From Patescibacteria group bacterium (GTDB lineage Bacteria; Patescibacteriota; Minisyncoccia; UBA6257; GWB1-50-10), in contig JBBTQX010000004.1 in assembly GCA_038065455.1 (NCBI GenBank), positions 5,157-69,156 of the forward strand: a stretch of DNA of 64,000 bases, in the 5' to 3' direction. Of this stretch, positions 6,042 to 60,985 are shown piece by piece; within the stretch, counting starts at the first letter, position 1; each line of letters starts with the position of its first letter. The translations under genes were made by a program, and so were the position numbers. The notes under the pieces were generated by a model. It saw nothing but the letters and a program-made list of their open reading frames with translations, had not been told where the DNA came from and ran no database searches.

Positions 6042-7850
6042 CTATTTAACCACATCGGATTCCCCTGAGATTGCTCCTACTACTGCGCTCGTGACGGAGC
6101 CCGCAACGCTTTGCAAATCGAGTCCGGTAAAATTGTCCAAGGCCTTGAGGCGGGCCGCTCTCAGGAGAAGCTGAGAAGCACCCAACATATCGTCATTCGG
6201 CGTTCCTTCGATTTGAAAGACCGCCTCGGCCGGCTCGCTCAAAACCCCCTTGGTCGCCGCCACTCGGTCGATTCTCCAAACCACCTCGTTCTCCTTCTCG
6301 TCGAAGACGGGCGATTCGCCCAAATTGGCCTTGACCGCGCCACTCCATTTCACCCCGGCGGCGAGCGCCGCCCTTACCTCGACATTATTCAAATCATTGG
6401 AAAAATTCTTTATCACCCAATGGACGGAGTATTGGGTGGATTCGCCCACTTTGGGCGGCAGATTGCCCGCATCCGTTATTCCGCTTTCTTTGTTATTATG
6501 GAAAGTTTGGGCGGTTAGGAGCACCAAGCCGGAAATCTTCGTATCCGACGCCACGCTCACCGACGTCTGGCCGGCCGAAAGATAGTAAGGCACCGAAGGC
6601 GAAGTCACAATCGCGTTCATCCGAACGGAAAAATTGCGGTCGTTCAGCCTCGTAAGATTGAACGAGCTTCTTATCTTCGCCTGGAAATTCACCTCGCCGT
6701 TCGCGCCCGGATCAAGCATCTTCAAAGCCGGCAAATTCGAGAAATTCCAATAAAAAGATTTGGCCGCCGCCGGATCGAGCATTTCTCCGGTCAAAGACGC
6801 GTTCAATTTCACGTCGGCTAAAACAATGCCGCTGTCATTCCGATAACGGATGGAATAATTGAGGGTTTCGCCGACTTTCGCGGTGTAATCTTCCCGACCG
6901 TTCACCGAAACTTCCAGAAAAATCGGCGAAGCGGAAGGCGAGAGATTTACCGTTCCTTCCGCGATTGGATATTCGTTCCCACCCAGTTCGGCCGAAATTT
7001 TAACGGGAATGACGGCAGTCGCCCCATAGGTCAAATCAAGCCGACCAGAAATAACAAGTTTACCCTTCGCCCCGGGAGCCAAAACGCCCAACTTCCAATA
7101 ATTATTGAGCGAAGCCGGCGGAACGCTCGCCGAATCGAATTTGAACGAGTTGGGATACTCCGCCTGCAAGATTAATTCCGAAAAGCTGAAATCGCTCTCA
7201 TTTTTGTAATTCACTTCCAGCTGAAAGCCCGAACCGCTCAATATTTGGCCGGGATTTTTTATTTCCATCGATACGGCCGAGCCTTTTATTTTCACTTCTC
7301 CGGCCGATCGAACTTCGAAACGGGTGCCTGTCCCGATCGAGTAGGATACCGAGGCCGATATTTTCCCGACCGAATTGTCTTCGCCTGTTGCCAAGAGGGA
7401 AAAAGTTTTTTTAACCAGGTTTCCCGAAGCGATGTCACCCGCGCTTTCCGTCGCCAAATTACGGCCTGCGGGAAAACCAGGCACGGCGATGCCCTCGGGA
7501 AGATTGAGGGTAATCACGGCTTTATTAATAACCCCGCCTGAATTATTCGCCATACTAACTTCAACGGAAAAAGGGGTACCCCGTGAAACGCTCTTGGGAA
7601 CGGATACCTCTAGTGTCACATCCCGGGAAACGGAAGTATAGGAAAAGATGAAAAATAAGCCGGCGCCGACTATGAGGAGTGCAATAATACTGCCGATAAG
7701 AAGTATTTTTTTGAGCCACCTGTGATGATCTTCGATATCATCCTCAAATTCGCGGATTTTTTCGGCGAAAGGCTCGATCCCGGCTTTTTTTGCGGTGGGA
7801 AACTTTTTTTGGAAAGTTTTGAGCCTTTTCTCGAGGTTATTCAGGGCCAT
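6042..7850 (-). CDS. membrane-anchored surface protein with repeated beta-sandwich domains (DUF11/CARDB-like)
   Basis: The N-terminus has a TM segment (ILLIGSIIALLIVGAGLFFIF). It is followed by Thr/Ser/Asn-rich repeated modules of about 100 aa. Confidence 0.4.
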   Translation of the reverse strand: MALNNLEKRLKTFQKKFPTAKKAGIEPFAEKIREFEDDIEDHHRWLKKILLIGSIIALLIVGAGLFFIFSYTSVSRDVTLEVSVPKSVSRGTPFSVEVSMANNSGGVINKAVITLNLPEGIAVPGFPAGRNLATESAGDIASGNLVKKTFSLLATGEDNSVGKISASVSYSIGTGTRFEVRSAGEVKIKGSAVSMEIKNPGQILSGSGFQLEVNYKNESDFSFSELILQAEYPNSFKFDSASVPPASLNNYWKLGVLAPGAKGKLVISGRLDLTYGATAVIPVKISAELGGNEYPIAEGTVNLSPSASPIFLEVSVNGREDYTAKVGETLNYSIRYRNDSGIVLADVKLNASLTGEMLDPAAAKSFYWNFSNLPALKMLDPGANGEVNFQAKIRSSFNLTRLNDRNFSVRMNAIVTSPSVPYYLSAGQTSVSVASDTKISGLVLLTAQTFHNNKESGITDAGNLPPKVGESTQYSVHWVIKNFSNDLNNVEVRAALAAGVKWSGAVKANLGESPVFDEKENEVVWRIDRVAATKGVLSEPAEAVFQIEGTPNDDMLGASQLLLRAARLKALDNFTGLDLQSVAGSVTSAVVGAISGESDVVK

Positions 7851-30950: not shown

Positions 30951-30953
30951 TTG

Positions 30954-31025
30954 TGGGCGATGAGGGATTTGAACCCCCGGCCTTCATCGTGTAAAGATGT
31001 TGCTCTACCACTGAGCTAATCGCCC
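30954..31025 (-). tRNA. tRNA-Val (anticodon UAC)
   Basis: The cloverleaf reads GGGCGAT-TA-GCTCAGTGGTAGAGC-A-ACATC-TTTACAC-GATGA-AGGCC-GGGGG-TTCAAAT-CCCTC-ATCGCCC-A. CCA is not encoded. Confidence 0.85.
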
Positions 31026-31032
31026 TGGATTG

Positions 31033-31106
31033 TCGGCCCGGAAGGACTCGAACCTTCGAATAGACGAGGTATAAGCTCGTTGCATTAGCCGCTATGCTAC
31101 GGGCCG
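31033..31106 (-). tRNA. tRNA with anticodon UAU, putative tRNA-Ile2(UAU) reading AUA
   Basis: The cloverleaf has acceptor CGGCCCG/CGGGCCG, D-arm GCAT-AGCGGCTA-ATGC, anticodon arm ACGAG-CTTATAC-CTCGT, a 6-nt variable loop, T-arm GAAGG-TTCGAGT-CCTTC and discriminator A. It directly abuts the ftsH stop codon. Confidence 0.65.
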
Positions 31107-35335: not shown

Positions 35336-38300
35336 ATGAATAAAGAAAAAGAAATACCGGAAGAAAGAAGGGACAAGATTCAGGCGCAGGAGATTACCTC
35401 CGAGCTCCGCGATTCCTATCTGGACTACGCGATGTCCGTCATCGTCTCGCGGGCTTTGCCCGACGTGCGCGACGGCCTGAAGCCGGTTCAGCGGAGAATT
35501 CTCTGGGCGATGTGGGACGACAGCCTGACGCACAGCGCCAAGTTCCGGAAATCGGCCAATGTCGTGGGTGCGGTCTTAGGGCGCTATCATCCGCACGGCG
35601 ACATCGCACTTTACGACGCGATGGCCCGAATGGCCCAGGATTTTTCCCTGCGCTATCCGCTAGTTGACGGGCAAGGCAATTGGGGATCGATCGACGGGGA
35701 TTCTCCCGCAGCAATGCGTTACTGCGTAACCGGAAACACTTTAATCATTACCGAAAAAGGACTGGTTCCGATTGAAAGTTTAGGAGATTCAAAAAATCTG
35801 GACGGCGAAGAAAAAAATATTCAAATAAAAATACTTTCTAAAAATAGGGGGGTTAACAAAGCCGTGAAATGGTTTGACAGCGGCAGACATCCAACGATTA
35901 AAGTGGAAACGAATCACGGATTTTCCTTGACGGGCAGTGAAAATCATCCGATTCTCACTTGGATAAAAAATCCCGCCACTGGCGCTCCTTCTTTCTCGTG
36001 GAAACTTTTAAACGATGTAAAAGAAGGAGATTTTGCCGTTATTGAAAGAACTTCCGATTTGTTATGGCCGGAAAAAAATATCAACCTGGCTTCTTATTGG
36101 CCAAATGAAAATAGGCGCTGGGATAAAAAAATCCTACCCAGAGAGTTGGATGAAAATTTAGCGTTCGTGCTTGGGGCGTTAATAGCGGAGGGAACAATCA
36201 AAGAAAATGAGATTGAATTCTGTAACAGCGATCCCGAATTCATAGATGAATTTAAGGCGAAATGGCGGAATGTTTTCCCCGATTGCCGCCTCCATCAGTT
36301 TTACCGCAAGCCGAATTCTTTTGGCAAAAAACCTTACCAAACGCTGGAGATACACTCCCGGCAAGTGGCGGCTCTATTGAGAAATGTCGGTCTTTTACCC
36401 GTGAAATCCGCCAAAAAAACGATTCCTAATCTGGTTCTTCAATCACCAAAGTCAGTTGTCGCTTCTTTCTTAAGGGCCTATTTCGAAGGAGACGGCAGTA
36501 TCAGCTGGAGCGGGAGAATGAACGAACTTAGCGCGGTTTCCACAAGCGAGAAACTTATTAAAGAAATTCAAATAGCACTTTTGAGATTTGGGATAGTATC
36601 CGCGAAAAGATTTGATAGATTAAAAAGCAATCACAAGCTCTATATTCGCGGCCTGAAAAACTACGCGCTTTTCAAAAAGCAGGTAGATTTTGCTGTTTCG
36701 GTCAAAAAAACAAAGTTGAACGGCTTATTGGAAAAAACCGAAAGAGATTCTTCATTGACGGACTTCGTGCCATTTTTATCAGAATTCATAAGGAAAAATA
36801 CGGAACGAGATTATAAAAAAGAAAGAATAACCAACCATTACAATTTTGACCGTTATTCAAACCTAAAAAACAGAGAAGCGGGCATATTAACTGCGGTTCG
36901 CTCCGAAATAAAAACCAAAACCGCCGGAGTCCTGGAATCCCTACTTTCAAACAATTACCTTTTTGACCCGATTGTAAAAGTGGAAAAAGGCGGAATTGAA
37001 AAAGTTTATTCGGTAAAAGTCGCCAGTGATTGCCACTCTTTCGTTGCGAACGGTTTTATAAATCACAACACGGAGGCGCGCCTTTCGCGGATAGCGGAGG
37101 AACTTCTCACGGATATCGAAAAAGAAACGGTGGATTGGCAGCCGAACTACGACGCCACCCGCGAAGAACCGAAATTCCTGCCGGCCCGGCTTCCGAATCT
37201 GCTTTTGAACGGCACGGTCGGCATCGCGGTCGGTATGGCGACATCCATTCCGCCCCATAATCTGGGCGAGATTGCGGACGCGACCGCTCATCTAATAGAG
37301 CACCCCGACGCCGATATAAAAGAATTGATGCAATTTATGCCCGGGCCGGACTTTCCGACCGGCGGAATCATCTACGACAAAAAAGCGCTCGAGGAAGCCT
37401 ACACGACCGGCAAGGGTTCGGTCACTATCCGCGCCAAAGCTGAGATAGAAGAAAGAACCCATTCAAAACACACCGGTCAGGCGTCATCGGGCAGCTTCCA
37501 GATAATCATCTCCGAAATTCCGTATCAGGTGAATAAATCCGATCTCATCACCAAGATGGCCGAACTCGTGACGGACAAGAAAATCGAGGGTATCCGCGAC
37601 ATTCGCGACGAATCCGACCGTGAAGGCCTCCGCATCGTCGTGGAATTAAAGAACGACTCCTCGCCCCAGAAAATACTGAATCAGCTCTATGAATATACCG
37701 AACTCCAGAAGAATTTTTATTACAACGTTCTCGCGCTCGTAAACGGCCTTCAGTCGGAGATACTATCGCTCAAAGACGTGCTCTCGGAATATCTGGAACA
37801 CCGGAAAATAGTAATTCGCCGCCGAACGGAATTCGACCTCAAAAAAGCCCAGGACCGCGCCCATATTCTCGAAGGCCTCGTTAAGGCACTCGATAACATA
37901 GACAAAATAATCTCGACCATCAAGAAATCGAGAGACCGCGAAACGGCGAAACAGAGTCTGGTCAAGAATTTCAAACTCTCACCTCTCCAAGCCGACGCCA
38001 TTTTGGAAATGAAACTTCAAAGTCTTGCCGCCCTCGAACGGGAAAGACTGGAGAACGAGCTTAAGGAAAAAAGAAAGCTTATCGCTGAGCTCGAGTTGAT
38101 ATTAAAACAGCCGAAGAGGATATTAGGCATCATTAAAGATGATCTTCTGGATCTCAAAAAAATCTTCGCTGACCCGCGCCGGACGAAAATCATCGCGACC
38201 GGACTTAAAGAATTCAAGGAAGAGGATCTAATTCCTCAAGAAGAGGCTATTATCACCTTCACTCAAGACGGCTATGTGAAAAGGATGCCGCCGACGACCT

Positions 38301-39172
38301 TCCGCGTGCAGAAGCGCGGCGGCAAGGGTCTTATCGGTTCCGATCTCAAGGATGAAGACTTGATCAACCAACTCCTTTCGGCCGACACGCACGATAACAT
38401 TATCTTCTTCACGACCGGCGGAAAAGCCTTTCAAACAAAAGTTTACGAAATACCGGTGGCCGCTCGCACCGCGAAAGGCAAATCAATCCATAACTTCTTG
38501 GAGATTCCGCCGAACGAAAAAGTGAGTGCGATTGTCACCTATCCGCAGGCGCACGCCGACGGCAAGCACTTTATGGTAATGGTGACGAAAAGCGGCGTGG
38601 TGAAGAAAACCCCATTGGCGGATTTCGAAAATGTCCGCCGGAGCGGCATCATCGCCATCAAATTGAGCGCGGGCGACATTCTGGGCTGGATAAAGCTTTC
38701 CGAAGGCGATGATCAGATAATCCTCGTAAGCGCTCTCGGACAGGCTATCCGTTTCAAGGAAAAAGACATTCGGGGTATGGGTCGCGCGGCCGCGGGCGTA
38801 CGCGCCATCCATCTCAAGAAAAGCGACAGCGTGAGCGGGCTTGATATAATAAAGAAAGAGAATTCGGACAAATCAAGAATGGTGGCGGTGATGGCGAATG
38901 GCTTCGCTAAACAGACGGCGCTCAAAGAGTATAAAATCCAGCGCCGGGGCGGCTCGGGAACAAAGACGGCCAAGATTACGGATAAGACGGGGCCGGTCAT
39001 CGGAGCGCATATCGTGGACGATAAAGTAGAGGAGGTGTTGGCTTTTTCGACTAAGGGCCAAGCCATCCGGACACCGCTCAAAGATATCAGAGTATTGAGC
39101 CGCGCCACGCAAGGGGTGAAGATTATGAACCTGGAAAAGGGGGATAATCTGGTGGGAATAGTGTGCTTATAG
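35336..39172 (+). CDS. gyrA: DNA gyrase subunit A containing an intein
   Basis: The N-extein reads ..[22 protein letters not shown] 449-aa intein follows. The C-extein reads [11 protein letters not shown].., then the GyrA core and the beta-pinwheel C-terminal domain. The extein is 829 aa. Confidence 0.9.
35723..37069 (+). other. GyrA intein with LAGLIDADG homing endonuclease domain, inserted after the catalytic Tyr
   Basis: It begins CVTGNTLI (Cys1). [14 protein letters not shown] and [12 protein letters not shown] are the LAGLIDADG blocks. It ends ..VANGFINHN, followed by Thr at +1. It sits at the same site as the Mxe GyrA intein. Confidence 0.85.
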
Positions 39173-56462: not shown

Positions 56463-57260
56463 ATGAAAAAAAGGAAAATAATCTCCGCCATTATTTTATT
56501 GAGCGGTTTGGCATTTTTTCTGCTAATCGTCAATTCCACCGGAAAAAATCAAGAATTTCCGGCCATGGTAGCCCTGAATAAGAATAACTCTGAATCCGGT
56601 TTTGACTACCGAACCGATAAAAATCGGGACATTATCCCGAGCGCGATTTCCGGAACAAATATGTCTCCCGCGACCGACAATTTAACCGAATTGCTCGCTA
56701 AAAACATTTCCAGTGGAATTCTCACGGTAAACAGTAAACTAGTATCCGAACAAGGAACTTCTTCCATTGCCCTTCCTTCATCTAATTCGTTGGGCAACTC
56801 CATAGAGCAGTCTATCGAGCAAAATATGAAATTCCCGGTCTTCGGCTTAAAAGATATCAGAATCGGCTCTGATAATTCGCCGGAGGCCCAACTCGCTTAT
56901 TTCAACACAATCGGGGAAATATCCAAGAAAAACTTTGGGAATTTCAAAACCTCCATCGTGACAATGCTCAATAATTTAATTGAAAATAACGATTCCACCG
57001 CACTCGCCAAATACGCTAGAATTGCAAATAAACAAGTCGCTGATTTTCTTGCGCTTAAAGTCCCGGAACAACTTTCCGCTTGGCATCTACAAAACCTGAA
57101 TTTATGGCAGAAGAAATTCACGGCCTATTCCGCGATGGCTAATTTGAGTTCCGATCCGCTCAAAATGATTATCGCCTTCAAAGAGGTTCCGAATATCGTG
57201 CAGGAAACATTGAATTTGGATTCAGTGATGAAAGAAAAATATTTAAAATTGATACCATAA
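56463..57260 (+). CDS. hypothetical N-terminally anchored exported protein (265 aa)
   Basis: The signal or anchor segment reads IISAIILLSGLAFFLLIV. It lies in a T4SS-like neighbourhood. Confidence 0.45.
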   Translation: MKKRKIISAIILLSGLAFFLLIVNSTGKNQEFPAMVALNKNNSESGFDYRTDKNRDIIPSAISGTNMSPATDNLTELLAKNISSGILTVNSKLVSEQGTSSIALPSSNSLGNSIEQSIEQNMKFPVFGLKDIRIGSDNSPEAQLAYFNTIGEISKKNFGNFKTSIVTMLNNLIENNDSTALAKYARIANKQVADFLALKVPEQLSAWHLQNLNLWQKKFTAYSAMANLSSDPLKMIIAFKEVPNIVQETLNLDSVMKEKYLKLIP

Positions 57261-58981
57261 TGGATTTATTGATGAAAAAAATTATTTCTTTGGTTCTTTT
57301 AACGTCTGTTTTGGCGGGAACCGCATTAATGGTTCCTCAAAAAGCTCAAGCGGCTGATCCGATAACCTGGGCGGTTTGCGGAGCATATGAAGCAACAATA
57401 GGGAAATTGTTCGGGGCTGCTGAAGATACAGTGAGTGGAACCATATCGGGTGCTGCGAATAAAATAGTGAACAAAGTAGTGAGCATTGATGCTGTTCCAG
57501 TTTCCGATAGTGCAGTTCAAAGCGGTCAAAAAGCGCAGGTCGCGAGCGATAAAAAAACGGAATGTGAGCGTTTTGTAGCGGATGTCGCGCTTGCCGCTTT
57601 GAAAAAACGACTTTTAAATATTATGACCCAGGATGTCGTAGAGTGGATAAATAATGGGTATGGGCCAGAAGGACCTAAATTCACCCAAGACTTCGAAAAA
57701 GTTTTCACCGACGCCGGGGACCAAGCTATAGGTGATATTCTTCAAGAATATGCCTTCACTGCTCCGCTTTGTAAACCTTTTTCTTTTGATATCACTTTCC
57801 AACTCCAGCAGCCGGCTCCGCTCGCCGAAAGAGCCCAATGTACGCTCACGAGCGTCATTAAAAGCTTTGAAAGCTACCGGGACGACTTCAAGAACGGCGG
57901 CTGGATCGGCTATCAGGAGCTTCTAAAACCTCAAAACAACCAATGGGGAGTGGAGCTTCTGACTCAAAGCGAGATAACGAGCCGCACGGCTCTTAAGATA
58001 AATTCCAGCGCTCTAAAAGAAACTGTTAATGTTGGATTCGATTCTTCGGAATGCACCGGCGGATGGGATTTAATGGATAAAATAACTAAACAGCTGGCAA
58101 AAGCTGGTTCCGAAATAGACCAAAATACAATAAATTTTTATGGTCATATAAATAAGGGTGATGTTTATCATGGGAAGACTTGGGACGATCCAAAATTAGC
58201 ACCTCCTTCTCCGACGAAAAGTAGTAAAAATTTCTTTTATAGTTGTGCTGGTACCACAATCACGACACCCGGTCGGACGATTGCGGCCGCTTTGGAAAAA
58301 TCCATTCTTCCAGAATTTGATCTTATAATAAACTCAAAAGACCTTACCAATTCTCTCGCTATTATCGCCGACGCGGCTATCAATGACATTATAAAAAGAG
58401 GGGTAAGAGGAATACAGAATTTCAATAAACCCGTTCCGAAAAATCCAGAAAATGAGAAGTTTTCCGATTCCCAAAGAAACAGGGTTAATCAGGCATCCGG
58501 GGATTACGATAAAATCCAAGGGCAGATAAGCAACAGTAAAACGACAGGTGCTTATCTTGACCAGATTAATCCGGCCGCCAACACCATTCTCGCCGCCTCA
58601 TCGATTCTCAAAAATGCTTCCGATAAAAACGAAGAAGCGATAAAAACCGGTCAAGATACTCTTGCCTGTATTGCCCAATCAAATACTCACGCCGATAGAC
58701 CTGCCATTCAAGCCGCCGTGGACAAAGCGAATTTAAACCCCGTGCTCATCACCGCAAAATCAACAGAAATTAAAACTAATTCCGCTTCCATACAAACCCT
58801 TATTTCCCAAATTAACGCGGGTAATTGTGATACCTATTACCAACCTCAATCTTGCCAATCTCAAATAGATGGCAAAAGATCTGCCGCCGGACAACTTAAT
58901 ATCGACGCTAATAACCTTCTAAATTCTGTTCAAGATACACTAACCAATCTGGAAGAATTAAAAAAGAAAGTTTGCTCTTAA
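57260..58981 (+). CDS. hypothetical secreted protein (573 aa)
   Basis: The signal peptide ends ..AQA-AD. The protein is Gln/Asn/Thr-rich and shows no enzymatic motif. Confidence 0.45.
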   Translation: MDLLMKKIISLVLLTSVLAGTALMVPQKAQAADPITWAVCGAYEATIGKLFGAAEDTVSGTISGAANKIVNKVVSIDAVPVSDSAVQSGQKAQVASDKKTECERFVADVALAALKKRLLNIMTQDVVEWINNGYGPEGPKFTQDFEKVFTDAGDQAIGDILQEYAFTAPLCKPFSFDITFQLQQPAPLAERAQCTLTSVIKSFESYRDDFKNGGWIGYQELLKPQNNQWGVELLTQSEITSRTALKINSSALKETVNVGFDSSECTGGWDLMDKITKQLAKAGSEIDQNTINFYGHINKGDVYHGKTWDDPKLAPPSPTKSSKNFFYSCAGTTITTPGRTIAAALEKSILPEFDLIINSKDLTNSLAIIADAAINDIIKRGVRGIQNFNKPVPKNPENEKFSDSQRNRVNQASGDYDKIQGQISNSKTTGAYLDQINPAANTILAASSILKNASDKNEEAIKTGQDTLACIAQSNTHADRPAIQAAVDKANLNPVLITAKSTEIKTNSASIQTLISQINAGNCDTYYQPQSCQSQIDGKRSAAGQLNIDANNLLNSVQDTLTNLEELKKKVCS

Positions 58982-58996
58982 AATAGGAGTAATAAA

Positions 58997-60985
58997 ATGG
59001 AAAAAATAATTAGAAATAAAAAAATTGTATTATTCTCGCTTGGAACAATTTTTTTTGTTTCTTTGTTTATCATTCCCCATTTTGCCGGAGCGCAAACCTC
59101 GATTATTACCGACGCGGCAGTCGGAATTTTCGTCACGGCCTTCAAGGTTTTCGCCTATATTTTAAACACCATCCTCGGCTTCCTTTTTATGCTTGCCGGC
59201 GGGCTCGTGAATATCGCGATGGATTTGAACGCCAAAATTTTGGATAAAACGAACACGCTGGTCAGTATCGGCTGGACAATCACCCGAGATGTGGCGAACC
59301 TCGGCTTCGTCCTGATTATGATAGTGATGGCAGTCGCGACCATCGTCCGCTACGAAAAATATAGCGTTCAGAAGCTCTTACCGCTCCTGATCGGCGCCGC
59401 CATTCTCGTGAACTTCAGCCTTACGATTGCGGGGGTTTTTATCAGCTTCTCGGATACAGTTTCGAAAGTTTTTTTGAAGAGACTGGTCGTGGAGGGCGCT
59501 ACCGGCCGGAACCTCACCGATGCCATCGCCGGCGCTTTCAGTCCTCAACGACTGCTGATGAAAAATACCGACAATCCGGAGCCGCCCGATCCAGCCTCGC
59601 AGGGGAATTTTTTGAGCGACGTATCGGCGGCGGCCCTTATCAGCATCTCCGGATTGGTTTTCAACGTTATCTTCATGGCCATCGCGGTGATTTCAATGGC
59701 CGCTTTAGCGCTTATGCTCCTTTACCGCTATATTTATCTTTCCTTCCTACTTATCCTTTCGCCGCTCGCCTGGATGTTCTGGGTCTTTCCCGACTTGGAA
59801 TATCTCTATAAGAAATGGTGGGAGAATTTCATAAAGTGGTGCTTCTTCCTGCCAGCTGTCACTTTCTTCCTCTATTTGGCGGTGGAGACTGCCTTCCAGA
59901 TGGAAAAAAACTCGATTTTCATCAACGCGACCGGCTTTACGGGCGCATTGACATCTATTATGCAGCAAGGCGCGCAGATGATAGTGCTCGCGGGACTGCT
60001 TCTGGGCGGATTGATTGTGGCCCAAACTCTAGGGATTAAGGGGGCAGAAGGATCTATGAAGCTAGCCGCGAAAATGGGCGAAGGAGCAAGATCGATGGCT
60101 GGACGAAAAGCCTTGCAATATGGAAGTTATGCTTTGCGGAGAAAGGGAGAGAAGCCGGATTCCAAATCTGCCGCAGAATGGCTGGTTGATAAAGCTAAGA
60201 GCGTGAAAATCCCCGTTGTAAAACAAGCGGTCGGCTATTTAGCCCGCGGAGCCACCAGAATTTCAACCGCGGGAGGAGAAGATATTTTGAAGGGACACGA
60301 TAGCGCCGTGAGTAAAATGTCTACTGCCGATGCCACGGCGGCCCTACTGACTGCTTCCGGACCGCGCCGAATAGCCCTTGTTAAAAAACTTTCCAAGGAA
60401 AAACAGTTGGGTAATCTGGATATGGGAGAAATAATAAACGGGGGCACGAGATCTCTTTTTACAAGATTCAATCAAGGAAGAGAATTCGGCGACGTTGAGA
60501 AGAACGGCCTAATGACGGTGGATATGATGGAGGCGCTGAAAAACAATAACGAGGAGGGTCTTCAGATAGCCACAGATAAACTAGTTGGCAGCATGACCAG
60601 AAAAGACTTGGAAACCGCTGCGGTAAAAGATTTGTTCAGCGGCAAAAAGAAGTTTGGCTTTGAAATAAACGACGTAAAAAACCTTGCCCAAAATTTTGCC
60701 CGGGCTCTGGAGTCGGAAAATCCTGCTCTCGTACCGAGCATGATACCGAAATTTGATTCTCCCTCCAGAAAAAACTTTACCGACACCTATAATGATGTCT
60801 TGGATGAAAGCTTGAAAATGGCTACTCCGGGCAGCCCGGCATACGATGAGATAAAAAAGATGAAAAAACAATTTGATACGGTGCTTGCCAACTATACAAT
60901 GGGGTTTTCTCCCGTCGAAGAGACAAGCGGCGGAGGAACAACCGCCAGCACGCCACCGCCAAGCGGAGGGGCTCCGAAACCCTGA
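58997..60985 (+). CDS. polytopic membrane protein, possible VirB6/TrbL-like T4SS channel component
   Basis: It has about six TM helices in the first 340 aa. The C-terminal domain is long and hydrophilic and ends in a Gly/Pro/Thr tail. The call rests on topology and gene context only. Confidence 0.35.
   Translation: MEKIIRNKKIVLFSLGTIFFVSLFIIPHFAGAQTSIITDAAVGIFVTAFKVFAYILNTILGFLFMLAGGLVNIAMDLNAKILDKTNTLVSIGWTITRDVANLGFVLIMIVMAVATIVRYEKYSVQKLLPLLIGAAILVNFSLTIAGVFISFSDTVSKVFLKRLVVEGATGRNLTDAIAGAFSPQRLLMKNTDNPEPPDPASQGNFLSDVSAAALISISGLVFNVIFMAIAVISMAALALMLLYRYIYLSFLLILSPLAWMFWVFPDLEYLYKKWWENFIKWCFFLPAVTFFLYLAVETAFQMEKNSIFINATGFTGALTSIMQQGAQMIVLAGLLLGGLIVAQTLGIKGAEGSMKLAAKMGEGARSMAGRKALQYGSYALRRKGEKPDSKSAAEWLVDKAKSVKIPVVKQAVGYLARGATRISTAGGEDILKGHDSAVSKMSTADATAALLTASGPRRIALVKKLSKEKQLGNLDMGEIINGGTRSLFTRFNQGREFGDVEKNGLMTVDMMEALKNNNEEGLQIATDKLVGSMTRKDLETAAVKDLFSGKKKFGFEINDVKNLAQNFARALESENPALVPSMIPKFDSPSRKNFTDTYNDVLDESLKMATPGSPAYDEIKKMKKQFDTVLANYTMGFSPVEETSGGGTTASTPPPSGGAPKP

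What the first reader, a model, noticed from the sequence alone, without database searches (positions are those of the whole stretch)
35723..37069. Full-length intein with LAGLIDADG endonuclease domain in gyrA, directly after the catalytic tyrosine
GyrA is 1278 aa, and a 449-aa insertion splits it. The insertion begins at a Cys right after ..AAMRY (the active-site Tyr) and ends ..HN before TEARL. It contains the LAGLIDADG blocks [14 protein letters not shown] and [12 protein letters not shown]. This is the insertion site of the mycobacterial GyrA intein (Mxe GyrA). It points either to horizontal spread of a homing intein into this lineage or to ancient retention. The endonuclease domain looks intact, so it may still be active.
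Basis: partly seen in the sequence, partly recalled or inferred. Interest (0 to 1): 0.55.

Follow-up and report, generated by a model that had tools for sequence, protein, structure and literature searches.

The report
Homing intein inside the gyrase A gene
The gyrase A gene of this uncultured ultra-small (Patescibacteria) bacterium is split, right after its catalytic tyrosine, by a complete self-splicing intein with an intact-looking homing endonuclease, which is a new host for a well-known and widespread mobile element, so the finding is correct but ordinary.

Summary
ORF 35336..39172 (+) encodes a 1278-aa GyrA. Nucleotides 35723-37069 encode a 449-aa in-frame insert that starts with Cys right after the catalytic Tyr129 and ends His-Asn before Thr+1.

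The insert is a canonical class-1 intein with a nested two-motif LAGLIDADG endonuclease:
- Its splicing lobes match the M. xenopi GyrA intein (PDB 1am2, E 2e-19).
- The AlphaFold model (pLDDT 93) matches endonuclease-bearing inteins (TliVMA, PI-PfuI, PI-SceI).
- Removing it restores a gapless GyrA.
- Both catalytic acids (E156, D257) are present.
- The endonuclease domain is under purifying selection (pN 0.13, pS 0.73 against locus L001).

The element looks mobile. Its GC is 40% against 52% for the exteins. Only 4 of 80 related genomes carry it. The closest relative (98% GyrA identity) lacks it and carries a different intein 10 codons upstream. An ~80-nt tract of excess divergence spans both insertion sites.

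At least 40 of the best 150 database cluster representatives are GyrA proteins with an intein at this same junction, and Staphylococcus jumbo phages have one too. Verdict: a new member of a known kind, of low interest. Splicing and DNA cleavage are inferred, not shown.

The parts
35336..39172 (+). gyrA precursor ORF (1278 aa plus stop), preceded by an AAAGGAA ribosome-binding site
   Evidence: Pfam DNA_topoisoIV 3e-154 and DNA_gyraseA_C x6. NCBIfam gyrA TIGR01063 1056 bits, above the cut-off of 877.
35336..35722 (+). N-extein (GyrA residues 1-129), ending in the catalytic Tyr129 codon TAC at 35720-35722
   Evidence: Gapless alignment to B. subtilis GyrA 4ddq.
35723..37069 (+). Intein, 449 aa (Cys1 ... 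His448-Asn449). GC 40.2% against 52.2% in the exteins.
35723..35761 (+). Splicing block A ([13 protein letters not shown]), with the Cys1 nucleophile
   Evidence: TIGR01445 intein_Nterm matches residues 1-79.
35918..35959 (+). Splicing block B ([14 protein letters not shown]), with S72, N74 and H75
   Evidence: Aligned to Mxe GyrA VTGTANHPLL. NHP is conserved in all same-site inteins.
36143..36712 (+). LAGLIDADG homing-endonuclease core (intein residues ~141-330), two alpha-beta-beta-alpha-beta-beta-alpha halves
   Evidence: Pfam LAGLIDADG_3. AF2 secondary structure. Foldseek matches to I-DmoI (TMt ~0.71) and to PI-type inteins. pN 0.127 / pS 0.726 against L001.
36158..36199 (+). LAGLIDADG motif 1 (block [15 protein letters not shown]); putative catalytic Glu156
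   Evidence: (E156 nearly invariant).
36455..36505 (+). LAGLIDADG motif 2 (block [18 protein letters not shown]); putative catalytic Asp257
36713..36952 (+). Helical region between the endonuclease core and the C-terminal splicing lobe (intein residues ~331-410); a probable accessory DNA-binding or linker module
   Evidence: AF2 helices 326-410 with pLDDT mostly above 88. The function is inferred only.
37001..37069 (+). Splicing blocks F and G ([23 protein letters not shown]), with His438, His448 and Asn449
   Evidence: Aligned to Mxe GyrA VYSLRVDTADHAFITNGFVSHN. TIGR01443 intein_Cterm..
37070..39172 (+). C-extein (GyrA residues 579-1278 plus stop), starting with the Thr+1 codon ACG at 37070-37072

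Best explanation
This is a genuine class-1 intein of the 'GyrA after the catalytic Tyr' allele, the same site as the mycobacterial GyrA inteins. It carries a nested monomeric two-motif LAGLIDADG homing endonuclease and sits in the single gyrA gene of a Patescibacteria (Paceibacteria/Minisyncoccia-type) bacterium.

Inferred mechanism. The 1278-aa precursor is translated. Cys1 performs an N-S acyl shift at the Tyr129-Cys130 bond, assisted by block B His75. Thr+1 attacks the resulting thioester. Asn449 cyclises, assisted by His448 and His438. The exteins are then ligated to give an 829-aa GyrA with a native ..AAMRY-TEARL.. active site. Until that happens gyrase A cannot work, because the insert lies next to the DNA-cleaving tyrosine.

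The released 449-aa protein most likely (about 55-60%) still cuts intein-free gyrA alleles across the Tyr/Thr junction. It would then be copied in by recombinational repair, that is, by homing. That would account for its patchy distribution and for the recombination tract at the site.

Shown here: sequence anatomy, homology, fold, restoration of GyrA on in-silico excision, purifying selection, and sporadic distribution. Inferred: splicing itself, DNA cleavage and its specificity.
For: Anatomy and homology:
- Exact junction residues and a continuous reading frame.
- Intein N- and C-terminal models above cut-off, and a LAGLIDADG_3 match.
- Mxe GyrA intein hit on both splicing lobes, E 2e-19, plus TliVMA/PI-PkoII hits on the endonuclease part.
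- AF2 model with pLDDT 93.4 and pTM 0.93. Its best structural matches are endonuclease-bearing inteins 7qss (E 3e-25, TMq 0.71), PI-PfuI, PI-PkoII and PI-SceI, then Mxe GyrA (TMt 0.85) and I-DmoI.
- The spliced product aligns gaplessly with solved GyrA structures.

Signs of function:
- Blocks A, B, C, E, F and G are conserved across 14 same-site inteins.
- Against the L001 intein (76% identical, no indels), pN is 0.13 and pS 0.71. The endonuclease core scores 0.127/0.726, which is as constrained as the splicing lobes.

Signs of mobility:
- GC is 40% against 52%, and GC3 41% against 64%. The same offset appears in four other hosts.
- Only 4 of 80 related genomes have the intein at this site. 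The closest relatives L004, L006 and L007 lack it.
- Intein identity to a Planctomycetia copy (54%) exceeds extein identity (49%). Within Patescibacteria it is lower than extein identity (55-58% against 67-70%).
- Window and L004 exteins are 90.5% identical at DNA level overall but 70% in an ~80-nt tract spanning the insertion sites: 31 differences in 120 nt against 11 expected, matched by 0 of 2000 permutations.
Against: - No experiment exists; splicing and cleavage are inferred.
- The full protein scores 1124.6 bits on NCBIfam NF038098 'GyrA_w_intein', below its cut-off of 1850. It is therefore not a member of that narrow curated lineage.
- Block B position 7 is Ser rather than the usual Thr. 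This is a conservative change, and S/T alternate within this clade.
- The window-L001 comparison is saturated at synonymous sites. Purifying selection is clear, but the timing of acquisition is not.
- The polarity of the divergent tract between window and L004 could not be assigned. It could stem from L004's neighbouring intein rather than from this one.
- No identical or near-identical copy (above 76% identity) was found, so no very recent transfer is documented.
Confidence: 0.9

Rival explanations
1. The intein is competent for splicing but its endonuclease no longer cuts DNA. On this view it is a late stage of the homing cycle. It is kept only because imprecise loss from an essential gene would be lethal, or because the domain stabilises the fold.
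For: - Many inteins are in this state, which is established knowledge of the homing cycle.
- Same-site mini-inteins and endonuclease-eroded versions exist: P0033 is 177 aa with no endonuclease, and the phage Madawaska intein lacks motif 1.
- The closest copy is only 76% identical, so no fresh homing event is documented.
Against: - Both catalytic acids (E156, D257) and both LAGLIDADG helices are intact and conserved in all full-length relatives.
- pN/pS in the endonuclease core (0.127/0.726) is as low as in the splicing lobes and close to the extein value (0.086/0.664).
- The model is confident throughout the endonuclease domain.
- A recombination tract lies at the site relative to the sister genome.
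Confidence: 0.3
2. The intein has been co-opted as a post-translational switch (conditional protein splicing) that gates gyrase activity in response to redox state, metals or temperature. Purifying selection would then reflect host benefit rather than mobility.
For: - The position next to the catalytic Tyr means the precursor must be inactive.
- Inteins cluster in replication proteins, and conditional splicing has been described for other inteins (PMC4760082; abstracts of PMC4513877 and PMC7360933).
- A Cys (C437) next to the block F His is conserved in this clade alongside Cys1.
Against: - There is no direct evidence.
- The closest relatives do well without it, which argues against a needed regulatory role.
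- The distribution and the GC offset are those of a selfish element.
- The C1-C437 distance in the model could not be measured with the tools available.
Confidence: 0.08
3. The insert is not a functional intein. It would be a non-splicing insertion domain, a pseudogenised gyrA, or a chimeric assembly artefact.
For: The window comes from an uncultured organism and the exact protein is not on record in the assembly index. The GC differs from the flanks.
Against: - The reading frame is perfect, and all junction residues and every splicing block are intact.
- Five independent assemblies hold the same architecture at the same codon, as do at least 40 cluster representatives.
- No second gyrA was seen among the large ORFs scanned.
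Confidence: 0.02

Closest known systems
Mycobacterial GyrA inteins (Mxe GyrA mini-intein, PDB 1am2/4oz6; full-length M. leprae-type GyrA inteins; NCBIfam NF038098)
   Same: - Same host protein.
- Same insertion point directly after the catalytic Tyr, with Thr as +1 residue. The window's intein starts at profile position 117 of NF038098.
- Homologous splicing lobes: E 2e-19, NHP in block B, VYS..H.F..NGF..HN in blocks F/G.
- Structural match TMt 0.85.
- That the mycobacterial site is the Tyr/Thr junction rests on my own knowledge (Fsihi 1996; Telenti 1997). Those papers were not readable here.
   Different: - Host phylum is Patescibacteria, not Actinobacteria.
- The sequence is distant: the whole protein scores 1124.6 bits, below the model's cut-off of 1850.
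- Mxe has lost its endonuclease (198 aa), whereas this one is full length (449 aa).
- Ser instead of Thr at block B position 7, and Cys instead of Asp before the block F His.
Same-site GyrA inteins in metagenomic Patescibacteria, Planctomycetia, Acidobacteria and Armatimonadetes (L001, L002, L003, L005, P0001, P0042 and others)
   Same: Identical junction (..RY|C[VLI][TSA]G ... HN|TE..), length 400-453 aa, and the same LAGLIDADG architecture. Identity is 76% to L001 and 54-58% to the others.
   Different: None is closer than 76%. The window's copy is a separate lineage of the same allele.
GyrA intein of Staphylococcus jumbo phages Madawaska, MarsHill and Machias (annotated 'intein' in GenBank)
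   Same: Same junction: AASRY|CLTGEH ... FIHHN|TEMRL. This shows that the allele also travels in phage genomes.
   Different: Only ~28% identical, 374 aa, and the first LAGLIDADG motif is missing from the alignment.
Endonuclease-bearing archaeal and yeast inteins (TliVMA 7qss, PI-PfuI 1dq3, PI-PkoII 2cw7, PI-SceI 1vde)
   Same: Overall two-domain architecture, a HINT splicing domain with a nested LAGLIDADG endonuclease. Foldseek E 3e-25 to 6e-12. Sequence hit to 7qsu/7qss at E ~1e-12 on the endonuclease part.
   Different: Different host proteins and insertion sites, with 10-22% identity.

Membership tests
Class 1 intein (HINT splicing domain) | Nucleophilic Cys/Ser as first residue | tested here: met
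   Cys1, codon TGC at 35723. Invariant in 14 same-site inteins.
Class 1 intein (HINT splicing domain) | Block B T/S-x-x-H motif | tested here: met
   S72-E-N74-H75, with T70. Aligned to Mxe T72-A-N74-H75. Ser replaces Thr at B:7.
Class 1 intein (HINT splicing domain) | Blocks F/G with penultimate His and terminal Asn | tested here: met
   [23 protein letters not shown], with H438, H448 and N449. TIGR01443 scores 17.8-18.2 bits, above the cut-off of 15.6.
Class 1 intein (HINT splicing domain) | Cys/Ser/Thr as first C-extein residue | tested here: met
   Thr+1, codon ACG at 37070.
Class 1 intein (HINT splicing domain) | HINT fold formed by the N- and C-terminal lobes | tested here: met
   AF2 pLDDT 93.4. 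Foldseek to 1am2 TMt 0.85, and to 4oz6 rmsd 1.9 over 110 columns.
Class 1 intein (HINT splicing domain) | Pfam Intein_splicing PF14890 gathering score | tested here: not met
   29.6-32.6 bits against a cut-off of 35.8. The model is split by the 300-aa endonuclease insert. The NCBIfam N- and C-terminal models do pass.
Class 1 intein (HINT splicing domain) | Excision restores a contiguous functional host protein | tested here: met
   In silico only: the 829-aa product aligns gaplessly over the junction to GyrA 4ddq, E 1e-100.
Class 1 intein (HINT splicing domain) | Autocatalytic protein splicing | not testable with these tools
   Needs expression and SDS-PAGE or mass spectrometry.
LAGLIDADG homing endonuclease (monomeric, two-motif) | Two LAGLIDADG helices, each ending in an acidic residue followed by Gly | tested here: met
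   ..LIAE156-G and ..FEGD257-G. E156, E255, G256 and G258 are nearly invariant.
LAGLIDADG homing endonuclease (monomeric, two-motif) | Pfam LAGLIDADG_3 above gathering score | tested here: met
   70.8 bits against a cut-off of 22.5, with 2 matched stretches.
LAGLIDADG homing endonuclease (monomeric, two-motif) | Pseudo-dimeric alpha-beta-beta-alpha-beta-beta-alpha fold | tested here: met
   AF2 element order H144-156 E E H E E H / H243-257 E E H E E H. I-DmoI TMt ~0.71 and I-Tsp061I 0.67.
LAGLIDADG homing endonuclease (monomeric, two-motif) | Site-specific cleavage of the intein-free allele | not testable with these tools
   Indirect support only: purifying selection and a divergence tract at the site.
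GyrA intein allele at the catalytic-Tyr site (Mxe/Mle GyrA type) | Insertion between the catalytic Tyr and the Thr of ..RY|TE.. | tested here: met
   The intein start coincides with position 117 of NF038098. The same junction occurs in at least 40 cluster representatives and in a phage.
GyrA intein allele at the catalytic-Tyr site (Mxe/Mle GyrA type) | Sequence homology of the intein itself to known GyrA inteins | tested here: met
   1am2 E 2e-19. NF038098 over the intein alone E 5e-61, residues 1-449 on profile positions 117-537.
GyrA intein allele at the catalytic-Tyr site (Mxe/Mle GyrA type) | NCBIfam NF038098 'intein-containing DNA gyrase subunit A' curated cut-off | tested here: not met
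   1124.6 bits against 1850. The protein is outside that narrow curated lineage, though it has the same architecture.

The most novel reading that the evidence does not exclude
gyrA of Paceibacteria-type Patescibacteria may be a live multi-site intein battleground. Three insertion sites lie within ~60 codons: site c before the YHPHGD motif, site b at GNWG|S, and site a after the catalytic Tyr. The window and its sister genome L004 (98% identical GyrA) carry alternative inteins only 10 codons apart, and an ~80-nt co-conversion-like tract of divergence spans both sites. If the window's endonuclease is active and the two neighbouring inteins disrupt or reshape each other's target sites, this would be a natural bacterial counterpart of the haloarchaeal MCM-a/MCM-d interference system (PMC10643990), in an organism group where intein biology is essentially undescribed.
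Probability: 0.3. Interest if true: 0.4.

Novelty: new member of a known kind. Interest (0 to 1): 0.2.

Why it matters
Mostly for annotation. The true GyrA is 829 aa, and gene callers or phylogenomic marker pipelines should remove the 449-aa insert.

Beyond that, it extends a classical intein allele to Patescibacteria. A 2015 survey listed GyrA inteins only in Actinobacteria, Aquificae, Chloroflexi and Proteobacteria (PMC4760082).

It also supplies a full-length, probably active relative of the biotechnologically important Mxe GyrA mini-intein. Together with the sister genome's alternative intein, it offers a small natural data set on homing and co-conversion.

None of this would surprise an intein specialist.

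Tried and rejected
- Other inteins in the window: the ten largest other ORFs show none.
- Viral metagenome contigs, scanned for close relatives of the intein: none confirmed.
- Provenance by exact look-up of the precursor protein: not on record.
- Literature on inteins in CPR/Patescibacteria: only incidental mentions. Telenti 1997 is not held, so the statement about the mycobacterial insertion site rests on the NF038098 coordinates and on my own knowledge.
- Donor of the divergent tract between window and L004: neither genome is closer to any sampled relative within the tract, so polarity is unresolved.
- Suspected HNH endonuclease in the neighbouring site-b inteins of L010/L053, from an HHxDFNKxNNNP motif read by eye. 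Pfam confirms the intein (Intein_splicing E ~1e-22) but gives no HNH hit at E 0.01, so this stays a visual lead.
- Mutual exclusion of site-a and site-b inteins: rejected as a strict rule, because P0026 and P0049 carry both.
- dN/dS as a ratio: synonymous sites are saturated (pS ~0.7), so only pN against pS is quoted.
Full report
**Observation**

The region holds one uninterrupted ORF, 35336..39172 on the + strand, of 1278 aa. It is preceded by an AAAGGAA ribosome-binding site. Translation and motif search give these facts:
- AAMRY ends at Tyr129.
- The next residue is Cys (TGC at 35723).
- The insert ends His-Asn (AAC ending at 37069) and is followed by Thr (ACG) of TEARL.
- The insert is 449 aa.

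All coordinates and strings in the finding are exact.

**What the host gene is**

- Pfam finds DNA_topoisoIV (3e-154) and six DNA_gyraseA_C blades.
- NCBIfam gyrA models pass their curated cut-offs: TIGR01063 scores 1056 bits against 877, and NF004043 scores 1069 against 902.
- After in-silico removal of residues 130-578, the 829-aa product aligns without any gap across the junction to solved GyrA structures. The best is B. subtilis 4ddq at E 1e-100, with ..[18 protein letters not shown].. against ..DGDSAAAMRYTEARMSKI...
- That alignment places Tyr129 on chain residue 123. From my own knowledge, this is the catalytic tyrosine equivalent to E. coli Tyr122.

**What the insert is**

Sequence evidence:
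- NCBIfam intein_Nterm scores 39.6 bits (cut-off 24.5) on residues 1-79, and intein_Cterm scores 17.8-18.2 bits (cut-off 15.6) on the last 23 residues.
- Pfam LAGLIDADG_3 scores 70.8 bits (cut-off 22.5).
- The curated 'intein-containing DNA gyrase subunit A' profile NF038098 matches the intein alone at E 5e-61. Intein residues 1-449 fall on profile positions 117-537, so the intein begins exactly where that profile's intein begins.
- Against PDB sequences the best hit is the M. xenopi GyrA intein (1am2, E 2e-19), on both splicing lobes. Block B GSENHPIL aligns to GTANHPLL, and blocks [24 protein letters not shown] align to VYSLRVDTADHAFITNGFVSHN. The central part hits endonuclease-bearing VMA inteins and PI-PkoII.

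Structure evidence:
- An AlphaFold2 model built on a 25-sequence alignment (A1) is confident, with pLDDT 93.4 and pTM 0.93.
- Foldseek against the PDB returns TliVMA intein 7qss (E 3e-25, TMq 0.71), PhoVMA, PI-PfuI, PI-PkoII and PI-SceI. It then returns Mxe GyrA (TMt 0.85) and the monomeric LAGLIDADG enzyme I-DmoI (TMt ~0.71).

Key residues:
- A 14-sequence alignment of same-site inteins and residue numbering give Cys1, T70/S72-x-N74-H75, Glu156 at the end of LAGLIDADG helix 1, Asp257 at the end of helix 2, His438, His448-Asn449 and Thr+1.
- Two curated thresholds are not met. Pfam Intein_splicing scores 29.6-32.6 bits against 35.8, because the model is split by the endonuclease. NF038098 scores 1124.6 bits against 1850, because it is a narrow lineage model.
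- Neither failure contradicts intein identity.

**Is the endonuclease alive?**

The nearest copy is in locus L001, a Patescibacteria MAG. It is 449 aa, has no indels and is 76% identical. Nei-Gojobori counts:

| Region | pN | pS |
|---|---|---|
| Whole intein | 0.133 | 0.709 |
| Endonuclease core | 0.127 | 0.726 |
| N-terminal splicing lobe | 0.142 | 0.643 |
| C-extein | 0.086 | 0.664 |

Synonymous sites are saturated, so no ratio is quoted. The endonuclease is nevertheless clearly as constrained as the splicing domain. With both catalytic acids intact, I rate an active homing endonuclease at roughly 55-60%.

**Host and distribution**

A scan of one genome per GTDB species returned 80 loci. 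Nearly all are Patescibacteria MAGs labelled Paceibacterota, Minisyncoccia, Jorgensen-, Wolfe-, Harrison- or Liptonbacteria. tblastn with the spliced GyrA and reading of the ORFs show the following:
- Four loci carry an intein at this site: L001, L002, L003, and L005, which is a Planctomycetia MAG.
- Three loci carry a different intein 10 codons upstream, at GNWG|C...HN|S (site b): L004, L010 and L053.
- One locus, L013, carries a LAGLIDADG intein at a third site before YHPHGD (site c).
- No intein interruption was detected in the other 72 loci (a few are truncated or partly masked).
- Pfam confirms the site-b and site-c inserts as inteins.

The closest relative, L004, has extein identity of 98.4% at protein level and 90.5% at DNA level. 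It has an empty site a and an occupied site b. The next relatives, L006 and L007 (89% and 88% protein identity), have no intein.

**Evidence for mobility**

- The intein's GC is 40.2% against 52.2% in the exteins, and GC3 is 41% against 64%. A similar offset is seen in all four other hosts.
- Intein identity is flat at 54-58% whatever the host distance. It is below extein identity within Patescibacteria (67-70%) but above it for the Planctomycetia copy (54% against 49%).
- Window and L004 differ at 237 of 2523 aligned extein positions, but the differences cluster. There are 21 in 60 nt and 31 in 120 nt starting at the site-b junction and running across site a, against 5.6 and 11.3 expected. 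No codon-position-preserving permutation of 2000 reached this.
- Identity in that tract is 0.70, against 0.91 elsewhere. This looks like a co-conversion or recombination tract, or target-site escape, associated with intein traffic after the two lineages split.
- It could not be told which genome, and which of the two inteins, caused the tract.

**How common is it?**

- An exhaustive HMMER search of 1.84 billion cluster representatives gave 6930 hits at E <= 1e-3, 2598 at E <= 1e-10 and 229 at E <= 1e-30.
- Of the best 150, 51 have GyrA motifs and at least 40 show the identical ..RY|C..HN|TE.. junction, with inteins of 400-453 aa.
- The word-indexed search found copies labelled Patescibacteria, Woesebacteria, Acidobacteria, Armatimonadetes and 'Nanoarchaeota'.
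- Staphylococcus jumbo phages Madawaska, MarsHill and Machias carry an annotated GyrA intein at the same junction, AASRY|CLTGEH...FIHHN|TEMRL, at 28% identity.
- A 2015 survey counted 50 GyrA inteins in Actinobacteria, Aquificae, Chloroflexi and Proteobacteria (PMC4760082). A 2022 gyrase study set aside 23 intein-containing GyrA sequences when assembling its dataset (PMC9348778).

The allele is therefore well known and widespread. Patescibacteria is an additional host group, and public MAG annotations already contain such proteins.

**Verdict**

It is a textbook full-length class-1 intein with a LAGLIDADG homing endonuclease at the classical GyrA catalytic-tyrosine site. It is probably still mobile, and it is a new member of a known kind. 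Interest is low (0.2). The only mildly interesting aspect is the local population genetics: alternative neighbouring inteins in sister genomes, and the divergence tract between them.

Noticed in passing
L004:4583-5368 (JBBTRY010000040.1), also L010 and L053: The closest relative of the window's gyrA has no intein after the catalytic Tyr. It has a different intein 10 codons upstream instead (GQGNWG|CFTKDTEV...GIFVHN|SIDGD). That intein is 262 aa in L004 and 391 aa in L010. The long form has an HHxDFNKxNNNPxN...HWKIH motif that looks HNH-like by eye, and L004 has a ~129-aa deletion through it. Pfam confirms the intein but not an HNH domain.
   Followed up: partly
L013:6001-9930; P0033; P0026; P0049: There is a third gyrA intein site, before the YHPHGD motif (VVGE|CFVKNT...IVHN|CMGKYHPHGD). 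It holds a LAGLIDADG intein in L013 and a mini-intein in P0033. P0033 also has a 177-aa endonuclease-less mini-intein at the Tyr site. P0026 and P0049 carry the site-b and Tyr-site inteins together, so the two are not mutually exclusive.
   Followed up: partly
window 35699-35779 and 37070-37120 (extein flanks), compared with L004: An ~80-nt tract of the spliced gyrA, from the site-b junction across the Tyr-site junction, is only 70% identical to L004, against 91% elsewhere. Nearly all the differences are synonymous, and 0 of 2000 permutations matched the clustering. This is either a co-conversion tract or target-site escape, and the polarity is unresolved.
   Followed up: yes
window 31032-31106 (-) and 30953-31025 (-): There is a tRNA-Ile with anticodon TAT (UAU), adjacent to tRNA-Val(TAC). 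Most bacteria read AUA with a lysidine-modified CAU tRNA (my own knowledge), so a UAU tRNA-Ile is unusual.
   Followed up: no
window 6042-7850 (-), 57260-58981 (+), 58997-60985 (+): Three large ORFs (601, 573 and 662 aa) have no Pfam match at E 1e-5. Neighbouring large ORFs are ordinary housekeeping genes: a class I tRNA synthetase, H+-pyrophosphatase, FtsK, FtsH, PNPase and a Mg-chelatase-like ATPase.
   Followed up: no
L081 (Staphylococcus phage Madawaska MW349129.1, 232431-233552): This jumbo phage's GyrA carries an annotated 374-aa intein at exactly the same Tyr|Thr junction, with an eroded first LAGLIDADG motif. Phages are therefore a possible vehicle for this intein allele.
   Followed up: partly
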